From a virus (lineage: Duplodnaviria > Heunggongvirae > Uroviricota > Caudoviricetes): a stretch of 10,711 bases of DNA. The notes beneath the pieces were generated by a model that was not told the origin of the DNA, did not search any database, and saw only the letters and a program-made list of their open reading frames with translations. Position numbers and translations under genes: made by a program. The DNA lies in IMG/VR virus record IMGVR_UViG_2554235190_000004. One strand, given 5' to 3'. Below are positions 1 through 9,777 of this stretch, in pieces (the first letter of the stretch is position 1; every line of letters begins with the position of its first letter).

Positions 1-567
1 ATGCTTATTGGCTATGTACGCGTGTCAACAAATGACCAGAACACCGATTTGCAACGTAGTGCGCTGAACTGCGCGGGATGTGAGCGGATTTTTGAGGATA
101 AAATCAGCGGCACTAAGTCCGACAGACCGGGGCTGAAAAAACTGCTCAGGACACTATCGGCAGGAGACACGCTGGTTGTCTGGAAGCTGGACAGGTTGGG
201 GCGCAGTATGCGGCATCTTGTTACGCTGATAGAAGAGTTACGCCAGCGTGGTGTGAATTTCAGAAGCCTGACTGACAGTATTGATACCAGTACCCCAATG
301 GGCCGTTTCTTTTTTCATGTCATGGGTGCCTTGGCTGAAATGGAACGCGAACTGATAGTTGAACGTACCAGGGCAGGGCTGGCTGCAGCTCGTGCCAAAG
401 GCAGAGTAGGTGGACGCCGTCCTAAGTTGACCACCGAACAGTGGGCACAGATTGGGCGTTTACTCGAGGCCGGAGAATCAAGACAGCGTATTGCACTGAT
501 TTTTGATGTAGGTGTTTCTACCATTTATAGAAAATTTCCGGCAAATAAGATCAATGAATCCCCCTGA
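1..567 (+). CDS. Serine site-specific DNA invertase (Hin/Gin/Pin/Cin family resolvase-invertase)
   Basis: 188-aa ORF beginning MLIGYVRVSTNDQ, the typical N-terminus of serine invertases with the catalytic Ser in the VRVSTxDQ motif; C-terminal helix-turn-helix (GVSTIYRKF). Length matches Hin/Gin/Pin (about 185-193 aa). The window begins exactly at the start codon, so the upstream crossover site is not visible. Confidence 0.9.
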   Translation: MLIGYVRVSTNDQNTDLQRSALNCAGCERIFEDKISGTKSDRPGLKKLLRTLSAGDTLVVWKLDRLGRSMRHLVTLIEELRQRGVNFRSLTDSIDTSTPMGRFFFHVMGALAEMERELIVERTRAGLAAARAKGRVGGRRPKLTTEQWAQIGRLLEAGESRQRIALIFDVGVSTIYRKFPANKINESP

Positions 568-1891: not shown

Positions 1892-2407
1892 ATGGCTTTA
1901 CCACGTAAATTAAAACACCTGAACCTGTTTAACGACGGGAATAACTGGCAGGGGATCGTTGAGTCGCTGACGCTGCCGAAATTCACCCGCAAATATGAGA
2001 AGTATCGCGGCGGCGGAATGCCGGGGGCAGTGGATGTGGATCTGGGGCTTGATGACAGTGCGCTGGACACAGAATTTTCCATTGGTGGTACTGAACTGCT
2101 GCTGTTTAAGCAGATGGGCAAAGCCACGGTGGATGGCATCCAGTTGCGCTTTACCGGCTCTATCCAGCGTGACGATACCGGGGAAGTGCAGGCCGTGGAG
2201 CTTGTGGTGCGTGGACGTCACAAAGAAGTGGATTCCGGTGAGTGGAAGACGGGCGAAAGCAATACCACCAAAGTGACCAGTACCAACAGCTACGCGAAGC
2301 TGACCATCAATGGTGAGGTGCTCTATGAAGTGGACCTTATCAACATGGTGGAAATTGTGGACGGTGTGGACCTGATGGAAGCGCACCGCAACGCCCTCGG
2401 CCTCTGA
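1892..2407 (+). CDS. FII: Tail tube protein (P2 gpFII family)
   Basis: 171-aa ORF, RBS AAGGGGA 1881-1887, starts 10 nt after the FI stop; size and order match P2 FII. Confidence 0.9.
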   Translation: MALPRKLKHLNLFNDGNNWQGIVESLTLPKFTRKYEKYRGGGMPGAVDVDLGLDDSALDTEFSIGGTELLLFKQMGKATVDGIQLRFTGSIQRDDTGEVQAVELVVRGRHKEVDSGEWKTGESNTTKVTSTNSYAKLTINGEVLYEVDLINMVEIVDGVDLMEAHRNALGL

Positions 2408-2461: not shown

Positions 2462-2764
2462 ATGAGCGATAAGCAGACTGAAAAGACTATTCAACTGGAT
2501 ACCCCCATCATGCGCGGTAAAACAGAAATTACCGAAATTGTGCTGCGTAAACCGCAGTCCGGTGCGCTGCGCGGTACACGCCTGCAGGCCATTATGGATA
2601 TGGATGTGAACGCGATGATGACCGTGATCCCCCGCATCTCCAGCCCGGCACTGACTGCACAGGAAATTGCAGAGATGGACCCGGCAGATCTCACTGCCAT
2701 GTCGGTTGAGGTTGTCACTTTTTTGTTGAAGAAGTCGGTGCTTGCCGGTTTACCGACAGCCTGA
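2462..2764 (+). CDS. E: Tail assembly chaperone gpE (zero-frame product)
   Basis: 100-aa ORF lying between the tube and tape measure genes, as in P2; contains the T6G slippery site near its 3' end. Confidence 0.85.
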   Translation: MSDKQTEKTIQLDTPIMRGKTEITEIVLRKPQSGALRGTRLQAIMDMDVNAMMTVIPRISSPALTAQEIAEMDPADLTAMSVEVVTFLLKKSVLAGLPTA

Positions 2765-2898
2765 CGGTTGACGATCTGGTGGCAGATATCGCCACCATTT
2801 TTCACTGGCCGCCATCCGTTACTGACGTTATGCCGCTGACCGAAGTGCTGGAATGGCGGTATAAAGCGATTCAGAGAAGCGGGGCCAACGATGAGTGA
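2462..2898 (+). CDS. E+E': Tail assembly chaperone frameshift fusion gpE+E' (join about 2462..2725 with -1 shift to 2898)
   Basis: Hand translation of the -1 frame from 2719 gives FFVEEVGACRFTDSLTVDDLVADIATIFHWPPSVTDVMPLTEVLEWRYKAIQRSGANDE then stop, with no in-frame stop; the end overlaps the tape measure ATG at 2891. Absent from the supplied ORF track because it has no ATG of its own. Confidence 0.65.
2719..2725 (+). other. Programmed -1 ribosomal frameshift slippery heptamer TTTTTTG (E to E')
   Basis: tttttt g at 2719-2725 inside gpE; the -1 frame is open from here to the TGA at 2896-2898. This is the same arrangement as the P2 E/E' and lambda G/GT chaperone frameshifts. Confidence 0.65.
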
Positions 2899-5800
2899 TA
2901 ATAACCTGCGCCTGCAGGTCATTCTTAATGCGGTTGACAAACTCACCCGCCCATTCCGTGCTGCACAGGCCAGTTCGAAAGAGCTGGCTGGCGCAATCAG
3001 AAACTCCCGTAACGCATTAAAGCAACTCAATCAGGCGGGTAACAGCCTGGAAAAATTTCGCAAGCTGCAGGCCGATAACAAGAAGTTAGGCGACAGGCTG
3101 AACTATGCCAGACAGAAGGCTAATTTGCTTAGCTCTGAGCTGGAGGCGATGGAACAACCATCACAACGGCACCTTGTGGCTTTAGGTCGGCAAACGCTGG
3201 CAGTCCAACGCCTGGAAGAACAACAAAAATATTTGCAGAAGCAAACGGCACTTGTGCGTGCAGAACTGTACCGGGCGGGAATTTCTGCGAAAGATGATGC
3301 GGGAGCAACTGCCCGTTTAGCCCGTGAAACATCACGTTATAACCAGGAATTGTCGAAACAGGAGGCGCGGCTGAAGCGACTGGGGGAGGCTCAGCGCAGG
3401 ATGAATGCTGCGCGTGCCAGTTATGCCCGTTCGCTGGAGGTGCGTGATCGTATTGCAGGTGCCGGAGCCACCACCACGGCTGCAGGGCTGGCAATGGGCG
3501 CACCAGTGATGGCGGCAGTAAAAAGCTATACCAGCATGGAAGATGCCATGAAAGGTGTGGCAAAGCAGGTCAATGGTCTGCGTGACGATAATGGCAACCG
3601 CACTGCACGTTTTTATGAAATGCAGGATGCCATCAAGGCTGCCAGCGAACAGTTGCCGATGGAAAACGGTGCTGTGGACTTTGCCGCACTGGTTGAAGGT
3701 GGTGCGCGCATGAACGTCGCAAACCCTGACGACAGCTGGGAGGACCAGAAACGTGACCTGCTGGCCTTCGCCAGCACGGCAGCAAAGGCGGCAACAGCCT
3801 TTGAGCTGCCAGCGGATGAACTGTCAGAAAGTCTGGGGAAAATCGCCCAGCTCTACAAAATCCCTACCCGCAATATTGAACAGCTCGGTGATGCGCTGAA
3901 CTTTCTGGATGATAACGCCATGTCGAAAGGGGCGGACATCATTGATGTGATGCAACGTCTGGGCGGTGTGGCTGACCGTCTGGATTATCGTAAAGCGGCG
4001 GCGCTGGGTTCCACCTTCCTGACACTGGGCGCTGCGCCGGAGGTTGCAGCCAGTGCAGCAAACGCGATGGTGCGTGAATTGTCCATTGCCACCATGCAAA
4101 GCAAGAGTTTCTTTGAAGGGATGAATCTGCTGAAACTCAATCCTGAAGTGATTGAAAAGCAGATGACGAAGGATGCGATGGGAACTATCCAGCGTGTGCT
4201 GGAGAAGGTGAACGCACTGCCGCAGGACAAGCGTCTGTCTGCCATGACCATGTTGTTTGGTAAAGAGTTTGGCGATGACGCGGCGAAACTGGCAAACAAC
4301 CTGCCGGAACTACAGCGCCAGCTAAAACTGACAGCGGGCAATGATGCGCTCGGTTCCATGCAGAAAGAATCCGACATCAACAAGGACTCACTTTCTGCTC
4401 AGTGGTTGCTGGTCAAAACCGGAGCGCAGAACACCTTCAGCAGCCTGGGCGAAACGCTGCGCCAGCCGCTGATGGATATTCTGTACACGGTGAAAAGCGT
4501 CACAGGGGCGTTGCGTCGCTGGGTGGAAGCTAACCCGGAACTGACAGGCACACTGATGAAAGTAGCCGCTGTGGTGGCTGCCGTTACCGTGGGCCTCGGC
4601 ACCTTAGCGGTGGCGCTGGCTGCAGTGCTGGGGCCGCTGGCAGTGATCCGTCTGGGATTCTCTGTGCTGGGTATCAAAACGTTACCTTCCGTTACGGCAG
4701 CAGTAACTCGAACCAGCAGCGCGTTGTCCTGGCTGGCTGGCGCACCACTGGCACTGCTGCGACGCGGGCTTGCTTCATCGGGCAACGCCGCAGGTTTACT
4801 AACTGCGCCGTTGTCGTCTTTGCGCCGCACGGCATCACTGACGGGAAATGTCCTGAAAACGGTAGCAGGTGCGCCGGTTGCACTTTTGCGGTCTGGATTA
4901 TCCGGTTTACGTGCGGTTGCTGTGATGTTTATGAATCCACTGGCAGCACTACGCGGTGGACTGGCTGCCGCAGGCGCGGTGCTGCGAGTACTGGCATCTG
5001 GTCCACTGGCGATGCTGCGCGTTGCCCTGTATGCCGTATCTGGTCTGTTAGGTGCTCTGCTCAGTCCGATAGGTCTTGTGGTTACTGCACTGGCGGGCGT
5101 GGCGCTGGTTGTCTGGAAATACTGGCAACCCATCACCGCATTTCTTGGTGGCGTGGTGGAAGGATTCAAAGCGGCGGCAGGTCCCGTCAGTGCAGCATTC
5201 GAACCGCTTAAGCCCGTGTTCCAGTGGATTGGCGACAAAGTACAGGCGCTGTGGGGCTGGTTTACTGATCTGCTGACGCCCGTTAAGTCGACCTCTGCCG
5301 AACTGCAGAGTGCAGCGGCAATGGGGCGGCGATTCGGGGAGGCACTGGCGGAAGGGCTGAATATGGTCATGCATCCGCTGGACTCCCTGAAATCCGGCGT
5401 TTCCTGGTTGCTGGAGAAACTCGGCATTGTCAGTAAAGAGGCTGCAAAGGCGAAACTGCCGGAAAGAGTGACGCGTCAGCAACCTGCGACGGTGAATGCA
5501 GACGGTAAAGTGATGATGCCATCGGGTGGTTTTCCGTCATGGGGATATGGCTTTGCGGGGATGTATGACAGCGGCGGCTATATCCCGCGCGGGCAGTTTG
5601 GCATCGTCGGTGAAAACGGGCCTGAAATTGTTAACGGCCCGGCAAATGTGACCAGCCGGAGAAATACAGCTGCACTGGCTGCCGTTGTTGCCGGAATGAT
5701 GGGGGTTGCTGCCGCGCCTGCAGAGCTTCCACCGTTGCATCCTTTGGCACTTCCCGCGAAAGGCGGCGAAGCGATGGTGAGTCGTGCAGCCACTGTGCCG

Positions 5801-5968
5801 CCCGTTCACCGGATTGAGGCACCGACGCAGATCATCATTCAGACGCAGCCAGGACAAAGTGCGCAGGATATTGCACGGGAGGTGGCACGCCAGCTTGATG
5901 AACGTGAACGCAGGCTGAAGGCAAAAGCCAGGAGTAACTACAGCGATCAGGGGGGATACGACGCATGA
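2891..5968 (+). CDS. T: Tail tape measure protein (P2 gpT family)
   Basis: 1025-aa ORF immediately after the chaperone pair; N-terminal charged coiled-coil-like region, central hydrophobic Ala/Leu/Gly-rich repeats, conserved position. Its stop overlaps the start of U (ATGA at 5965-5968). Confidence 0.9.
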   Translation: MSDNNLRLQVILNAVDKLTRPFRAAQASSKELAGAIRNSRNALKQLNQAGNSLEKFRKLQADNKKLGDRLNYARQKANLLSSELEAMEQPSQRHLVALGRQTLAVQRLEEQQKYLQKQTALVRAELYRAGISAKDDAGATARLARETSRYNQELSKQEARLKRLGEAQRRMNAARASYARSLEVRDRIAGAGATTTAAGLAMGAPVMAAVKSYTSMEDAMKGVAKQVNGLRDDNGNRTARFYEMQDAIKAASEQLPMENGAVDFAALVEGGARMNVANPDDSWEDQKRDLLAFASTAAKAATAFELPADELSESLGKIAQLYKIPTRNIEQLGDALNFLDDNAMSKGADIIDVMQRLGGVADRLDYRKAAALGSTFLTLGAAPEVAASAANAMVRELSIATMQSKSFFEGMNLLKLNPEVIEKQMTKDAMGTIQRVLEKVNALPQDKRLSAMTMLFGKEFGDDAAKLANNLPELQRQLKLTAGNDALGSMQKESDINKDSLSAQWLLVKTGAQNTFSSLGETLRQPLMDILYTVKSVTGALRRWVEANPELTGTLMKVAAVVAAVTVGLGTLAVALAAVLGPLAVIRLGFSVLGIKTLPSVTAAVTRTSSALSWLAGAPLALLRRGLASSGNAAGLLTAPLSSLRRTASLTGNVLKTVAGAPVALLRSGLSGLRAVAVMFMNPLAALRGGLAAAGAVLRVLASGPLAMLRVALYAVSGLLGALLSPIGLVVTALAGVALVVWKYWQPITAFLGGVVEGFKAAAGPVSAAFEPLKPVFQWIGDKVQALWGWFTDLLTPVKSTSAELQSAAAMGRRFGEALAEGLNMVMHPLDSLKSGVSWLLEKLGIVSKEAAKAKLPERVTRQQPATVNADGKVMMPSGGFPSWGYGFAGMYDSGGYIPRGQFGIVGENGPEIVNGPANVTSRRNTAALAAVVAGMMGVAAAPAELPPLHPLALPAKGGEAMVSRAATVPPVHRIEAPTQIIIQTQPGQSAQDIAREVARQLDERERRLKAKARSNYSDQGGYDA
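4631..5029 (+). repeat. In-frame tandem repeats within the tape measure gene (six copies of a roughly 21-aa unit with core xPLAxLRxGL)
   Basis: Protein positions about 581-713: GPLAVIRLGF, APLALLRRGL, APLSSLRRTA, APVALLRSGL, NPLAALRGGL, GPLAMLRVAL at about 21-22-aa spacing, with correspondingly repetitive GC-rich DNA. Confidence 0.6.
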
Positions 5969-6450
5969 TGATGGTGCTGGGATTGTACGTGTTTATGCTG
6001 CGCACCGTGCCGTATCAGGAACTGCAGTATCAACGCAGCTGGCGACATGCGGCAAACAGCCGGGTAAACCGACGTCCGTCCACGCAGTTTCTGGGACCGG
6101 ACAACGACATGCTGACGCTTTCTGGTGTTCTTATGCCGGAGATAACAGGCGGCAGGCTGTCGTTGCTGGCTCTGGAGCAGATGGCAGAACAGGGAAAAGC
6201 ATGGCCCCTGATTGAAGGCAGCGGCACGATTTACGGCATGTATGTGATTGAGGGACTGAATCTGACTAAAACGGAGTTTTTCCGCGACGGTATGCCGCGC
6301 CGGATTGAGTTCACTCTGTCGCTCAAACGGGTGGATGAATCCCTGTCCGATATGTTCGGTGATCTCAGTGCGCAACTGAATAATTTGCAGAATACGGCAA
6401 CGTCTGCCTTAAGCGATATCAGTAAAACGGTGGGAGGGCTGCTGTCGTGA
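5965..6450 (+). CDS. U: Tail protein gpU
   Basis: 161-aa ORF, start overlaps the T stop (ATGA), stop overlaps the D start (GTGA); size and order match P2 gpU. Confidence 0.88.
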   Translation: MMMVLGLYVFMLRTVPYQELQYQRSWRHAANSRVNRRPSTQFLGPDNDMLTLSGVLMPEITGGRLSLLALEQMAEQGKAWPLIEGSGTIYGMYVIEGLNLTKTEFFRDGMPRRIEFTLSLKRVDESLSDMFGDLSAQLNNLQNTATSALSDISKTVGGLLS

Positions 6451-7547
6451 ATTTCAGCTCTGAACTGCTTAACAAAGGCAACAAAACTCCGGCATTCAGC
6501 ATCAGTATTGAGGGCAGGGATATCACTACTGTGCTGGATAACCGCCTGATGGGGCTTACGCTGACGGACAATCGGGGCTTTGAAGCGGACCAGCTTGATC
6601 TGGAGCTGGACGACGCCGACGGAAAAATCGTGCTGCCGCGCCGTGGTGCGGTCATTACGCTGGCGCTGGGCTGGAAGGGGCAGCCGCTTTTCCCGAAAGG
6701 GGCATTCACGGTGGACGAGATTGAACACACTGGCGCACCGGACCGCCTGACTATCCGGGCGCGAAGTGCTGATTTTAGGGAAACGCTGAATACCCGCCGT
6801 GAAAAATCGTGGCACAAGACCACGGTCGGGGAAGTGGTGAAGGAAATAGCCGTACGTCACAAGCTGAAGATGGCACTGGGTAAAGACCTGTCGGATAAGC
6901 CCGTGGAGCATATAGACCAGACTAATGAGAGTGACGGCAGTTTTCTGATGCGGCTGGCGCGCCAGTACGGTGCTATTGCGTCGGTGAAAAATGGCAATCT
7001 GTTATTCATCCGTCAGGGACAGGGTAAAAGTGCCAGCGGTAAACCACTGCCGGTGATCACTATCACACGTAAGGACGGCGACAGTCACCGCTTTACCCTG
7101 GCAGATCGCGGAGCCTATACGGGCGTAATTGCCAGTTGGTTGCATACCCGCGAACCCGCGAAGAAAGAAAGCACTACGGTGAAGCGTAAGCGCAGGACTA
7201 AGAAGCAGAAGAAAGAGCCGGAAGCGAAGCAGGGCGATTACCTGGTGGGGACGGATGAAAACGTGCTGGTACTTAATCGCACTTATGCCAACCGGAGCAA
7301 CGCCGAACGAGCGGCAAAAATGCAGTGGGAACGCCTGCAACGCGGCGTTGCGTCATTCTCGCTACAACTGGCGGAAGGTCGGGCAGATCTCTACACGGAA
7401 ATGCCAGTGAAAGTCAGTGGCTTTAAACAGCCGATAGATGATGCGGAATGGACCATTACGACTCTGACACATACCGTCAGCCCGGATAACGGTTTTACGA
7501 CCAGTCTGGAGCTTGAAGTGAGGATTGATGATTTCGAAATGGAGTGA
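6447..7547 (+). CDS. D: Tail protein gpD (late control gene D family)
   Basis: 366-aa ORF with GTG start at 6447 overlapping the U stop; position between U and ogr as in P2; contains a Lys/Arg-rich segment at protein positions about 235-262. Confidence 0.88.
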   Translation: MNFSSELLNKGNKTPAFSISIEGRDITTVLDNRLMGLTLTDNRGFEADQLDLELDDADGKIVLPRRGAVITLALGWKGQPLFPKGAFTVDEIEHTGAPDRLTIRARSADFRETLNTRREKSWHKTTVGEVVKEIAVRHKLKMALGKDLSDKPVEHIDQTNESDGSFLMRLARQYGAIASVKNGNLLFIRQGQGKSASGKPLPVITITRKDGDSHRFTLADRGAYTGVIASWLHTREPAKKESTTVKRKRRTKKQKKEPEAKQGDYLVGTDENVLVLNRTYANRSNAERAAKMQWERLQRGVASFSLQLAEGRADLYTEMPVKVSGFKQPIDDAEWTITTLTHTVSPDNGFTTSLELEVRIDDFEME

Positions 7548-7573
7548 TTCTTCGCAATGGAGAACTTTTAAGT

Positions 7574-7603
7574 TTGCAAAATGGAATAATACGGTATCAT
7601 TAT
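7574..7603 (+). promoter_or_regulatory. Candidate sigma70-type promoter for ogr (TTGCAA -35 at 7574-7579; TATCAT 7595-7600 or CATTAT 7598-7603 as -10)
   Basis: Hexamers read directly from the sequence in the AT-rich D-ogr intergenic region; spacing is 15 nt to TATCAT or 18 nt to CATTAT, neither ideal. Confidence 0.3.
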
Positions 7604-7637
7604 TGTGAATTTAGCAAAAATGGGGAGAACTCGAAAA

Positions 7638-7856
7638 ATGATGATTTGCCCACTGTGTGGAAGTGCCGCCCATACTCGCAGCAGTTTTCAGGTATCTTCA
7701 TTGACCAAAGAGCGTTACAACCAGTGCCAGAACATTAACTGCAGCCATACTTTTGTTACCCATGAAACTTTTGTTCGTTCGATTGCAACGCCAAAAGAAT
7801 CAAATCCGGTTCAGCCGCATCCAATGAAATCAGGGCAGGTGGCGCTCTCTCTTTGA
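7638..7856 (+). CDS. ogr: Ogr/Delta-type zinc-finger late transcription activator
   Basis: 72-aa product MMICPLCGSAAHTRS...KERYNQCQNINCSHTF with a C-x2-C-x22-C-x4-C zinc-binding motif and close resemblance to P2 Ogr (MFHCPLC...KERYHQCQNVNCS, recalled). RBS GGGGAG at 7622-7627. The 83-aa form in the ORF track (from 7605) is probably an artefactual N-terminal extension. Confidence 0.88.
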   Translation: MMICPLCGSAAHTRSSFQVSSLTKERYNQCQNINCSHTFVTHETFVRSIATPKESNPVQPHPMKSGQVALSL

Positions 7857-7936
7857 CGCTGCCGCCATTTTATCGCCATCGTTAAAAAACAGTGATTCTA
7901 ACATCATGATTTTAAACGGTATAAATTTCAGGCAAC

Positions 7937-7979
7937 AAAAAACCCATCAACCTTGAACCGAAATGGCGGGGTTGATGGG
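7937..7979 (-). terminator. Rho-independent terminator read on the - strand (10-bp stem cccatcaacc/ggttgatggg followed by a T-run), likely the ybjL terminator
   Basis: The inverted repeat 7943-7952 / 7970-7979 with AAAAAA at 7937-7942 on the + strand gives stem plus UUUUUU on the - strand transcript; the loop is long (17 nt); located about 115 bp downstream of the ybjL stop. Confidence 0.5.
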
Positions 7980-8091
7980 CTCCACAAAATGGGGACATCA
8001 AAGAAAAGCAGTGGCACTAATTAAGACTGATGCCCTGCGGAAAAGTTCTGCGGTTGTGCAAAAAAATTTCATTTTCAGGGCAACTTCAGTT

Positions 8092-9777
8092 TTATCCTAA
8101 TCCTGGCCATACCATGACGATGATTGTCCCTGCCAGCGTCAGCAGGACGTTGGCGATTGCATAGGTGCCCGCATAGCCCAGCGCCGGGATGTTACTGCGA
8201 GCTGTATCACTGATGATCTCCATTGCCGGCGCGCAGGTACGTGCGCCCATCATTGCGCCGAACAACAGCGCGCGGTTCATTCGCAATACATAAGCACCGA
8301 ACAAGAAACAGATAACCACGGGCACCAGACTGACAATCAATCCGGCAATCAACATCTGACCGCCAATCGCGCCCAGGCCGTTATTAATACCGCTACCGGC
8401 GCTCAGACCAACGCCTGCCATAAACACCATCAAGCCGAACTCTTTCACCATGCTTAATGCACCCTGCGGAATGTAACCGAAGGTCGGGTGGTTAGCACGC
8501 ATAAAGCCCAGCATAATTCCGGCGAATAACAACCCGGCAGCGTTCCCCATGCCGAAACTGAATGTGCTGAACTGGAAGGTGATCATCCCGATCATCAGCC
8601 CAATAACAAAGAAGGCGCAGAATGCCAGCAGGTCAGTGACCTGGCTGTGAATCGAGATAAAGCCGATGCGATCGGCGATGGTTTTTACGCGGCGGGCATC
8701 GCCGCTGACTTGTAAAACGTCACCTTTGTTAAGCACGACGTTGTCATCTATCGGCATCTCAATCTGGCTACGAATGACGCGGTTAAGGAAGCAACCGTGA
8801 TCGGTCAACTTCAGTTGTGCGAGACGTTTACCTACAGCGTTATGGTTTTTAACGACCACTTCTTCAGTGACGATACGCATGTCGAGAAGGTCACGATCGA
8901 AAACTTCTTTACCGTTACGGAAGCTGGGATCGAGTCGGGCATGGGCGTCGGGATAGCCTACCAACGCTATTTCATCGCCCATTTGTAGCACGGCATCACC
9001 GTCTGGATTTGCCAGAATCCCGTTACGTCGAATACGTTCAATGTAGCAGCCGGTTTGTCGATAAATACCCAGTTCACGCAGATTTTTGCCGTCGGTCCAG
9101 GCCACCAGTTCCGGGCCGACGCGATAGGCGCGGATCACCGGTAAATAAACCTTACGGTTGGCATCAGTGTCCAGGCCACGTTCGCGGGCGATTTGCTGGG
9201 CGCTGGTCTGTAAGTCCTGATGCTGCAATTTCGGCAAGTAACGCGCACCAACAATCAAACTCACCAGACCGATTAAATAGGTTAAGGCATACCCGAGGCT
9301 CAGATTATCCAGTGCCAGTGAGAGCTGCCTGCTTTCCATGCCGGAATGACGCAGTGTATCGCCAGCACCGACCAGAACCGGTGTCGACGTCATAGAGCCT
9401 GCTAACATACCGGCCGTCAGGCCAATATCCCAGCCAAACAGCTTACCTAACCCTAAGGCGATCACCAGCGCACTGCCAACCATCACCAGTGCTAACATTA
9501 GGTAATTTTTCCCATCGCGAAAAAAAATGGAAAAAAAGTTCGGTCCGGCTTCGACCCCGACGCAGAAAATAAACAGCATAAAGCCAAGATTAAGCGCATC
9601 GGTGTTAATGCTGAAATGTTGTTGGCCTAATAACAGCGATACGACTAAAACGCCAATGGAATTACCCAGTTGGATCGAACCAAGTCGTAACTTTCCGAGA
9701 CATAGCCCAAGCGCGAGGACCACAAATAATAACAGAATGTAATTCCCATTTAACAATTCGGCGACGTTTATATTCAC
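8092..9777 (-). CDS. ybjL: Putative transporter YbjL (AspT/YidE/YbjL family, two membrane domains flanking cytoplasmic TrkA-C-like domains)
   Basis: 561-aa ORF with GTG start; [24 protein letters not shown]... matches E. coli YbjL as I recall it, including length; hydrophobic N- and C-terminal halves with a soluble middle. Confidence 0.9.

What the first reader, a model, noticed from the sequence alone, without database searches (positions are those of the whole stretch)
2719..2898. Unannotated E' extension via -1 frameshift at TTTTTTG, overlapping the tape measure start
The supplied ORF track has no entry for this frame, yet the -1 frame is open for 60 codons from the T6G heptamer to a stop at 2896-2898, ending in ...LTEVLEWRYKAIQRSGANDE. 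The chaperone frameshift is conserved in long-tailed phages and is easily missed by ORF callers.
Basis: partly seen in the sequence, partly recalled or inferred. Interest (0 to 1): 0.45.

Follow-up and report, generated by a model that had tools for sequence, protein, structure and literature searches.

The report
P2-type tail chaperone E/E+E' frameshift

Summary
T_TTT_TTG lies at 2719-2725 in X_XXY_YYZ phase of gene E (2462-2764). The -1 frame is open from there to TGA 2896-2898, and it overlaps the tape-measure ATG (2891) by 8 nt.

- The -1 peptide matches Pfam PF06528 Phage_P2_GpE (E 5e-19), and E matches Phage_TAC_7.
- The predicted 145-aa fusion aligns with P2 E+E' (142 aa) without a gap across the junction (48% identity, E 5e-50), so the two heptamers fall in the same column.
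- Among 59 distinct relatives, changes downstream of E's stop are mostly synonymous in the -1 frame only (74:25, against 11:90 and 14:87).
- The heptamer is kept in 58 of 59 (the other has TTTTTTA).
- Variability dips in the dual-coding stretch.
- 16 of 20 loci examined (window included; the rest from Peduoviridae and similar phages) carry T6G there, and the other four carry other in-phase slippery heptamers.

The locus sits between the tube and tape-measure genes of an Elveevirus/Cartapus-like prophage next to E. coli ybjL. Public records are not silent on it. RefSeq calls a 39-aa stand-alone "GpE family" ORF (2779-2898), while the P2 record annotates a joined frameshifted CDS and the Fels-2 record notes the frameshift. 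The feature is already known, so interest is low.

The parts
1892..2407 (+). Tail tube gene (P2 FII homologue), the upstream neighbour that defines the canonical position of the chaperone pair
   Evidence: Pfam Phage_tube PF04985, E 8.8e-60. RefSeq relative: 'phage major tail tube protein'.
2462..2764 (+). Gene E, zero-frame product of 100 aa (tail assembly chaperone)
   Evidence: ORF list and translation. Pfam Phage_TAC_7 PF10109, E 2.4e-18. PHROG 103, E 7.9e-44.
2708..2711 (+). GAGG, a Shine-Dalgarno-like motif 7 nt upstream of the heptamer. It is a possible frameshift stimulator, which is a weak inference only.
   Evidence: Anti-SD duplex of -6.3 kcal/mol, the best in the upstream part of E. 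The same holds in 9 of 13 diverse loci. It ranks only in the top 8% of windows across the phage genes and is confounded by conserved residues.
2719..2725 (+). Slippery heptamer T_TTT_TTG (E codons 87-88 are TTT TTG), the site of the -1 shift
   Evidence: Sequence. Same heptamer and phase as the site annotated in P2 NC_001895. Intact in 58 of 59 distinct relatives, with TTTTTTA in the other one. Present in 16 of 20 loci examined, window included.
2725..2898 (+). E' extension in the -1 frame: 57 codons from GTT 2725-2727 to GAG 2893-2895, then TGA 2896-2898. The predicted fusion E+E' is join(2462..2725, 2725..2898), 145 aa.
   Evidence: Translation. Pfam Phage_P2_GpE PF06528, E 5e-19. 48% identity to P2 E+E' over 139 ungapped residues, E 5e-50. 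Synonymous:nonsynonymous codon changes of 74:25 in this frame, against 11:90 and 14:87 in the other two.
2726..2764 (+). Dual-coding stretch: the last 12 sense codons of E plus its stop, overlapped by the first codons of E'
   Evidence: 3 variable sites in 36 nt here. By comparison, 59 of 257 vary in the E-only part and 27 of 126 in the E'-only part. The variability minimum lies at 2717-2761.
2779..2898 (+). The stand-alone 39-aa 'GpE family phage tail protein' CDS as RefSeq/PGAP and many phage records call it. It is an annotation surrogate for E', probably not a separate gene.
   Evidence: Annotation. No Shine-Dalgarno sequence before GTG 2779 (-2.5 kcal/mol, the background median). That column is V/M/I/A in relatives.
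2891..5968 (+). Tape measure gene T (1025 aa). Its ATG overlaps the end of E' by 8 nt (ATGAGTGA).
   Evidence: ORF list. Pfam PhageMin_Tail, E 6.4e-17. RefSeq 'phage tail tape measure protein'.

Best explanation
Gene E (2462-2764) of a P2-like (Elveevirus/Cartapus-like, Peduoviridae) prophage encodes the tail assembly chaperone. Most ribosomes read through to the stop at 2762-2764 and make the 100-aa E. A minority slip back one base at T_TTT_TTG (2719-2725). The P-site tRNA-Phe on TTT and the A-site tRNA-Leu on TTG re-pair with TTT TTT, and reading continues in the -1 frame from GTT 2725 for 57 more codons to TGA 2896-2898. This gives a 145-aa fusion, E+E' (...VEVVTFL|VEEVGACRF...SGANDE). By analogy with lambda G/GT, E and the E part of E+E' coat the tape measure protein encoded just downstream. 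The E' domain recruits the tube protein so that the tube polymerises around the tape measure. Neither protein stays in the virion, and the fixed low frameshift rate sets the E:E+E' ratio. Shown here: the sequence anatomy, homology of both parts to P2 E and E', purifying selection on the -1 frame, and conservation of the slippery site. Inferred: that the shift occurs in this prophage, its efficiency, and the chaperone contacts.
For: The heptamer is in X_XXY_YYZ phase 12 codons before E's stop. The -1 peptide is a Pfam Phage_P2_GpE member (E 5e-19) and E is Phage_TAC_7 (E 2.4e-18); PHROG 1756 covers fusion residues 85-145, starting at the junction. The fusion aligns with P2 E+E' over 139 residues with no gap across the junction (48% identity, E 5e-50). 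The P2 RefSeq record annotates E+E' as a joined CDS with a '-1 translational frameshift' site at the same heptamer and calls both products essential tail proteins. PMC3091744 summarises Christie et al. 2002 and Xu et al. 2004: P2 shifts -1 at TTTTTTG to give E of 91 aa and E+E' of 142 aa. In 59 distinct relatives (87-99% identical), the E'-only region shows 74 synonymous to 25 nonsynonymous codon changes in the -1 frame, against 11:90 and 14:87 in the other frames. The -1 frame is open to the same stop in all 59, and the heptamer is intact in 58. The exception has TTTTTTA, which is still slippery. Variability is lowest across the heptamer and the dual-coding stretch. In 20 loci examined (window included; the others from Enterobacterales, Burkholderia, Ralstonia, Halomonas, Acidovorax, Mannheimia and Vibrio phages), 16 have T_TTT_TTG at the homologous place. 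The other 4 have different in-phase slippery heptamers (GGGAAAG, CCCTTTC, AAATTTT, TTTTTTA). In many loci the -1 frame opens only 0-4 codons before the heptamer. The gene order sheath-tube-E/E'-T-U-D-ogr is that of P2. The lambda G/GT mechanism and its 30:1 ratio are described in PMC5009743.
Against: There is no protein-level evidence for this prophage. No significant downstream RNA structure was found that could stimulate shifting (100 nt, z = -1.29, 25 of 200 shuffles fold as well); this agrees with what is reported for P2. The heptamer alone is not rarer than chance. The chaperone mechanism is transferred from lambda, whose G/T proteins gave no Pfam match here. No solved structure of any relative exists to check the contacts.
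Confidence: 0.93

Rival explanations
1. E' is a separate small gene translated on its own from GTG 2779 (39 aa), as RefSeq/PGAP and many phage records annotate it, and no frameshift is involved.
For: Near-identical records annotate a stand-alone 'GpE family phage tail protein' CDS at 2779-2898. A GTG is present there.
Against: No Shine-Dalgarno sequence precedes GTG 2779: anti-SD pairing is -2.5 kcal/mol, the background median, against -7 to -11 for the sheath, tube, T, U, D and ogr starts (E's own start is weaker, -4.0). The homologous column is V, M, I or A in relatives, so it is not a conserved start. Protein similarity to P2 E+E' and to PHROG 1756 continues upstream of 2779 right back to the heptamer. 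The -1 frame is open back to the heptamer in every locus, and in many it opens just before it. P2 genetics, as recorded in its annotation, treats E+E' as the essential product.
Confidence: 0.03
2. The -1 frame is reached by transcriptional slippage. RNA polymerase adds one extra U on the T6 run, and the edited mRNAs encode E+E' directly.
For: The site is a homopolymer run, and sequence alone cannot separate the two routes. An inserted U would give ...TFFVEEV..., the same product as P-site-only ribosomal slippage.
Against: Six T is short for efficient polymerase slippage (established knowledge, not tested here). The conserved feature is the X_XXY_YYZ phase, not the homopolymer. Relatives reach the homologous E' through GGGAAAG, CCCTTTC and AAATTTT, which suit tandem tRNA slippage but not polymerase stuttering. 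The P2 literature and record describe a translational frameshift.
Confidence: 0.04
3. The open -1 frame is a chance or decayed remnant with no product.
For: The heptamer count equals the chance expectation. A stretch of about 57 open codons is not extremely rare.
Against: Pfam E 5e-19. The synonymous bias is specific to the -1 frame. The frame is open in all 59 relatives and in all the other loci examined.
Confidence: 0.005

Closest known systems
Bacteriophage P2 genes E and E+E' (Christie et al. 2002, J Bacteriol 184:6522; NC_001895 P2p25/P2p26)
   Same: Same Pfam families for both parts and the same T_TTT_TTG heptamer in the same phase and alignment column. The -1 extension is 57 codons in both. 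In both, the E' stop overlaps the start of T in the string ATGAGTGA (window) or ATGAGTAA (P2). Both lie between FII and T. No downstream RNA structure in either.
   Different: 48% protein identity. E is 100 aa rather than 91, because the zero frame runs 12 codons past the heptamer rather than 6. The fusion is 145 aa rather than 142. The downstream tape measure is 1025 aa rather than about 815.
Escherichia phage Cartapus (Elveevirus), Fels-2 and SEN8 (Felsduovirus) E/E' loci
   Same: Cartapus has an identical E' extension and 98% DNA identity. Fels-2 and SEN8 are 86% identical with the same heptamer. The Fels-2 RefSeq notes already state that gpE+E' forms by translational slippage.
   Different: Essentially nothing; this window is one more copy. 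About 769 of 5426 complete E. coli genomes carry at least 80% of the window.
Phage lambda G / GT tail assembly chaperones (Levin 1993; Xu, Hendrix, Duda 2004, 2013, 2014)
   Same: Two overlapping frames between the major tail gene and the tape measure gene. [quoted passage not shown] This is the source of the functional model: the chaperone binds the tape measure and the extension binds the tube subunit.
   Different: No sequence-family match to lambda G/T was found here. Lambda's slippery site is G_GGA_AAG (my recollection). Lambda has a non-contractile tail, whereas this is a contractile-tail phage with a sheath gene.
E. coli dnaX gamma/tau -1 frameshift (A_AAA_AAG with an upstream SD-like element and a downstream stem-loop)
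   Same: A -1 tandem slippage on an X_XXY_YYZ heptamer in a bacterial system. A G-rich, SD-like stretch lies upstream of the site here too.
   Different: No significant downstream stem-loop. The SD-like motif is 7 nt upstream, not about 10 as in dnaX (my recollection), and it is statistically weak. The outcome here is an extended protein, not a truncated one.

Membership tests
P2-type E / E+E' frameshifted tail assembly chaperone pair | The upstream ORF is a Phage_TAC_7 (gpE-type) chaperone | tested here: met
   PF10109, 66.4 bits against a cutoff of 25, E 2.4e-18, residues 9-88.
P2-type E / E+E' frameshifted tail assembly chaperone pair | The -1 frame extension belongs to the Phage_P2_GpE (E') family | tested here: met
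   PF06528, 67.9 bits against a cutoff of 23, E 5e-19, full profile 1-37. PHROG 1756 at 2e-23 and PHROG 6416 at 4e-21.
P2-type E / E+E' frameshifted tail assembly chaperone pair | A slippery heptamer in X_XXY_YYZ phase near the 3' end of E, at the position homologous to the P2 site | tested here: met
   T_TTT_TTG at 2719-2725, E codons 87-88. The ungapped alignment with P2 E+E' puts both heptamers in one column.
P2-type E / E+E' frameshifted tail assembly chaperone pair | Located between the tail tube gene and the tape measure gene, with the extension ending at the tape measure start | tested here: met
   Tube 1892-2407, E 2462-2764, E' stop 2898, T ATG 2891.
P2-type E / E+E' frameshifted tail assembly chaperone pair | The -1 frame evolves as protein-coding sequence and the slippery site is conserved | tested here: met
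   Synonymous:nonsynonymous 74:25 in the -1 frame against 11:90 and 14:87. Heptamer intact in 58 of 59 relatives. Open frame in 59 of 59.
P2-type E / E+E' frameshifted tail assembly chaperone pair | The fusion protein is actually produced by frameshifting, and both products are needed for tail assembly | not testable with these tools
   Known for P2 only, from the record notes and the summary in PMC3091744. The primary paper, PMC135442, is not held.
Lambda G/GT-type chaperones (sequence family) | Sequence similarity to lambda gpG / gpT | tested here: not met
   The Pfam scan at E <= 0.01 returned only Phage_TAC_7 and Phage_P2_GpE. The relationship is one of gene position and mechanism, not detectable sequence homology.
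Lambda G/GT-type chaperones (functional class of Xu et al. 2004) | Two overlapping ORFs between the major tail and tape measure genes, joined by a programmed frameshift | tested here: met
   Class definition as quoted in PMC3091744.
dnaX-type stimulated -1 frameshift | A downstream stem-loop or pseudoknot stimulator | tested here: not met
   100 nt downstream: MFE -31.6 kcal/mol, z = -1.29, and 25 of 200 shuffles fold as well.
dnaX-type stimulated -1 frameshift | An upstream Shine-Dalgarno-like stimulator | tested here: inconclusive
   GAGG lies 7 nt upstream. It is the best anti-SD pairing within E in 9 of 13 loci. It ranks only in the top 8% across the phage genes and overlaps conserved codons.

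The most novel reading that the evidence does not exclude
The G-rich, Shine-Dalgarno-like stretch ((G/A)AGGT(G/T)G, GAGG 2708-2711 in the window) 7 nt upstream of the heptamer might be a conserved stimulator of the P2-type frameshift. It would pair with the 16S rRNA 3' end and substitute for the missing downstream RNA structure. That would be a dnaX-like stimulator at an unusually short spacing, not so far described for P2 as far as I could find.
Probability: 0.12. Interest if true: 0.3.

Novelty: already known. Interest (0 to 1): 0.07.

Why it matters
The main value is for annotation quality. The true product, a 145-aa E+E' fusion written as join(2462..2725, 2725..2898), is usually represented in RefSeq and many phage records by a 39-aa stand-alone ORF, or is omitted. 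Recoding-aware annotation would correct hundreds of E. coli prophage entries. Biologically it confirms that this prophage keeps an intact tail-assembly chaperone pair. It opens no new question.

Tried and rejected
- A downstream RNA stimulator was rejected: folding 2726-2825 gave z = -1.29.
- NCBIfam has no model matching E, E' or the fusion.
- No solved structure of any relative exists, with 0 PDB hits at E <= 1, so the chaperone contacts cannot be checked structurally.
- The primary P2 paper (PMC135442) is not in the held library. One literature query held an illegal character. Two others gave nothing or nothing beyond PMC3091744.
- A terminator scan of 7500-8200 found nothing.
- My first pass treated Ralstonia RSY1 as an exception with no T6G. 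Re-reading showed that the RefSeq ORF is called in the wrong frame and that RSY1 has T6G at the expected place.
- I did not run the large protein-database searches, structure prediction or the metagenome and genome scans. The identification was already unambiguous, and those runs would not have changed the verdict.

Full report
**Observation**

The window carries TTTTTTG at 2719-2725. Gene E is the 100-aa ORF 2462-2764. In its frame the heptamer reads T_TTT_TTG, the classical X_XXY_YYZ arrangement for tandem -1 slippage.

Translating from 2719 in the -1 frame gives 59 sense codons and a stop at 2896-2898. The -1 frame is closed by a TGA at 2707-2709 and opens at 2710, only three codons before the heptamer. 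The third frame is full of stops. The next gene (2891-5968) begins at an ATG 8 nt inside the end of the -1 frame.

The heptamer alone is not statistically unusual: 3 copies in the window against 3.1 expected, with only this one on the + strand. Everything rests on homology and conservation.

**What it is**

- **Family matches.** E matches Pfam Phage_TAC_7 ('tail assembly chaperone proteins E, or 41 or 14'; E 2.4e-18). The -1 peptide matches Pfam Phage_P2_GpE over the whole 37-position profile (67.9 bits against a cutoff of 23; E 5e-19). PHROG families 103 (E) and 1756/6416 (E') agree, and PHROG 1756 covers fusion residues 85-145, starting at the junction.
- **Neighbouring genes.** These are a resolvase-family recombinase, sheath, tube, tape measure, gpU, gpD and ogr. 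This is the P2 FI-FII-E-T-U-D-ogr order.
- **Genomic setting.** The window is the right end of a prophage lying next to E. coli ybjL/ybjM/grxA. About 769 of 5426 complete E. coli genomes hold at least 80% of it. The closest named phage is Escherichia phage Cartapus (Elveevirus, Peduoviridae; 98% identity). Fels-2 and SEN8 are 86% identical.

**Comparison with P2**

The P2 RefSeq record annotates E (91 aa) and a joined CDS E+E', with a 'site of -1 translational frameshift' at the G of the same TTTTTTG. It calls both products essential tail proteins.

The predicted window fusion (88 residues of E plus 57 of E', 145 aa) aligns with P2 E+E' (142 aa) over 139 residues without a single gap. Identity is 48% and E is 5e-50, so the two heptamers fall in the same column. 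In both phages the extension is 57 codons long and ends just inside the tape measure gene's start.

PMC3091744 summarises the primary work (Christie et al. 2002; Xu, Hendrix and Duda 2004). It reports a -1 shift at TTTTTTG, products of 91 and 142 aa, conservation in Burkholderia P2-like phages, and no downstream hairpin. The primary paper itself is not held.

**Evolutionary evidence that the -1 frame is read**

I compared 83 full-length homologous segments, which collapse to 59 distinct sequences including the window, at 87-99% identity.

| Measure | Result |
|---|---|
| Codon changes in 2765-2890, -1 frame | 74 synonymous : 25 nonsynonymous |
| Codon changes in 2765-2890, E (zero) frame | 11 : 90 |
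| Codon changes in 2765-2890, +1 frame | 14 : 87 |
| -1 frame open to the same stop | 59 of 59 |
| Heptamer intact | 58 of 59 |

- The single exception (L071) has TTTTTTA, which is still slippery and is silent in E.
- Variability is lowest across the heptamer and the stretch where E and E' overlap, at 2-3 variable sites per 30 nt against 6-9 in most other windows. This is what dual coding predicts.

I also examined the window together with 19 other phage loci, from Enterobacterales, Burkholderia, Ralstonia, Halomonas, Acidovorax, Mannheimia and Vibrio phages.

- Sixteen of the 20 have T_TTT_TTG at the homologous spot.
- The other four have different in-phase slippery heptamers leading into a homologous E': GGGAAAG, CCCTTTC, AAATTTT and TTTTTTA.
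- In many loci the -1 frame opens only 0-4 codons before the heptamer.
- The E' alignment shows the conserved core VDDLxADIAxIFHWxPSE...ELxxWRxRAxxRSG.

**Mechanism**

The most likely mechanism is tandem ribosomal slippage, with confidence about 0.93 that this is a functional E/E+E' recoding site. tRNA-Phe on TTT and tRNA-Leu on TTG re-pair one base back, and reading then continues in the -1 frame.

I found no significant RNA structure downstream (z = -1.29), which matches what is reported for P2.

The function is inferred from lambda G/GT as reviewed in PMC5009743. In that model the chaperone coats the tape measure protein, and the frameshift-encoded domain recruits the tube subunit. The two products are needed at a roughly 30:1 ratio, and neither is in the virion. 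For this prophage the shift itself, its efficiency and the contacts are all inferred.

**Rival explanations**

1. **Stand-alone initiation at GTG 2779**, as PGAP and many phage records annotate it.
   - No Shine-Dalgarno sequence is present: -2.5 kcal/mol, the background median, against -7 to -11 for most of the other gene starts in the window.
   - The column is V/M/I/A in relatives.
   - Similarity to P2 E+E' continues upstream to the heptamer.
2. **Transcriptional slippage on the T6 run.** Sequence alone cannot exclude it. It is disfavoured because phase, not homopolymer, is what is conserved, and relatives use non-homopolymeric heptamers.
3. **A chance open frame.** Searches exclude this.

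**Annotation state**

- Among the records inspected, only P2, Musica and Mannheimia 1152AP carry a joined CDS. L-413C and Wphi list an E+E' feature.
- Fels-2 mentions the slippage in its notes.
- Most others list a short stand-alone ORF.
- Several list nothing: phiE52237, KSP20, FSL SP-004 and the Vibrio phage.
- RSY1's ORF is called in the wrong frame.

**Verdict**

The feature is a further copy of a recoding event described in 2002-2004, identical at the E' protein level to that of phage Cartapus. Novelty is 'already known' and interest is low.

The only loose thread is a Shine-Dalgarno-like stretch 7 nt upstream of the heptamer, which is the best anti-SD match within E in 9 of 13 diverse loci. 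It is statistically weak and is confounded by conserved codons.

Noticed in passing
window 2708-2716 (GAGGTTGTC); the homologous 16 nt in L004, L005, L086, L088-L090, L092, L093: A G-rich, Shine-Dalgarno-like stretch lies just upstream of the slippery heptamer. It has the strongest anti-SD pairing of the whole upstream E gene in 9 of 13 diverse loci. It might stimulate frameshifting, but the spacing is short (7 nt), it ranks only in the top 8% of windows across the phage genes, and it encodes conserved (E/K)-V-V residues.
   Followed up: partly
L071 (IMGVR_UViG_2778261510_000014), position homologous to window 2719-2725: One of the 59 distinct relatives carries TTTTTTA instead of TTTTTTG. The change is silent in E (Leu) and V to I in E', and the heptamer is still X_XXY_YYZ.
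   Followed up: yes
L095 894-900, L098 852-858, L099 855-861, L100 843-849: More distant P2-like phages reach a homologous E' through other in-phase slippery heptamers: GGGAAAG, CCCTTTC, AAATTTT and TTTTTTA. The slippery site has therefore been replaced several times while the recoding was kept.
   Followed up: partly
L087 552-1022 (NC_025115 Ralstonia phage RSY1 ORF30): The RefSeq 'tail protein' ORF30 (156 aa) is called in the -1 frame, which happens to be open across the whole E gene. The real E is in the other frame, with T_TTT_TTG at L087 849-855. This is probably a mis-annotation.
   Followed up: partly
window 1-567 (+): A 188-aa resolvase/invertase-family recombinase (Pfam Resolvase 2.6e-53 plus HTH_7) lies directly upstream of the sheath gene. 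It may be a Hin/Gin/Cin-type invertase for a tail-fibre segment that lies outside the window.
   Followed up: no
window 7856-8092: The prophage-host junction must lie between ogr (7638-7856) and the host gene ybjL (8092-9777, minus strand). No terminator-like site was found by the simple scan. The att site was not identified because the other prophage end is outside the window.
   Followed up: partly
window 5965-5968 and 6447-6450: The T/U and U/D gene junctions overlap by 4 nt (ATGA, GTGA), as E'/T overlaps by 8 nt. This suggests translational coupling along the tail operon.
   Followed up: no
H41, NZ_CP029057.1 (E. coli FORC_081): In this strain the homologous prophage region matches in two pieces, and an IS26-family transposase is annotated within it. 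This looks like an IS insertion into the tail gene region.
   Followed up: no
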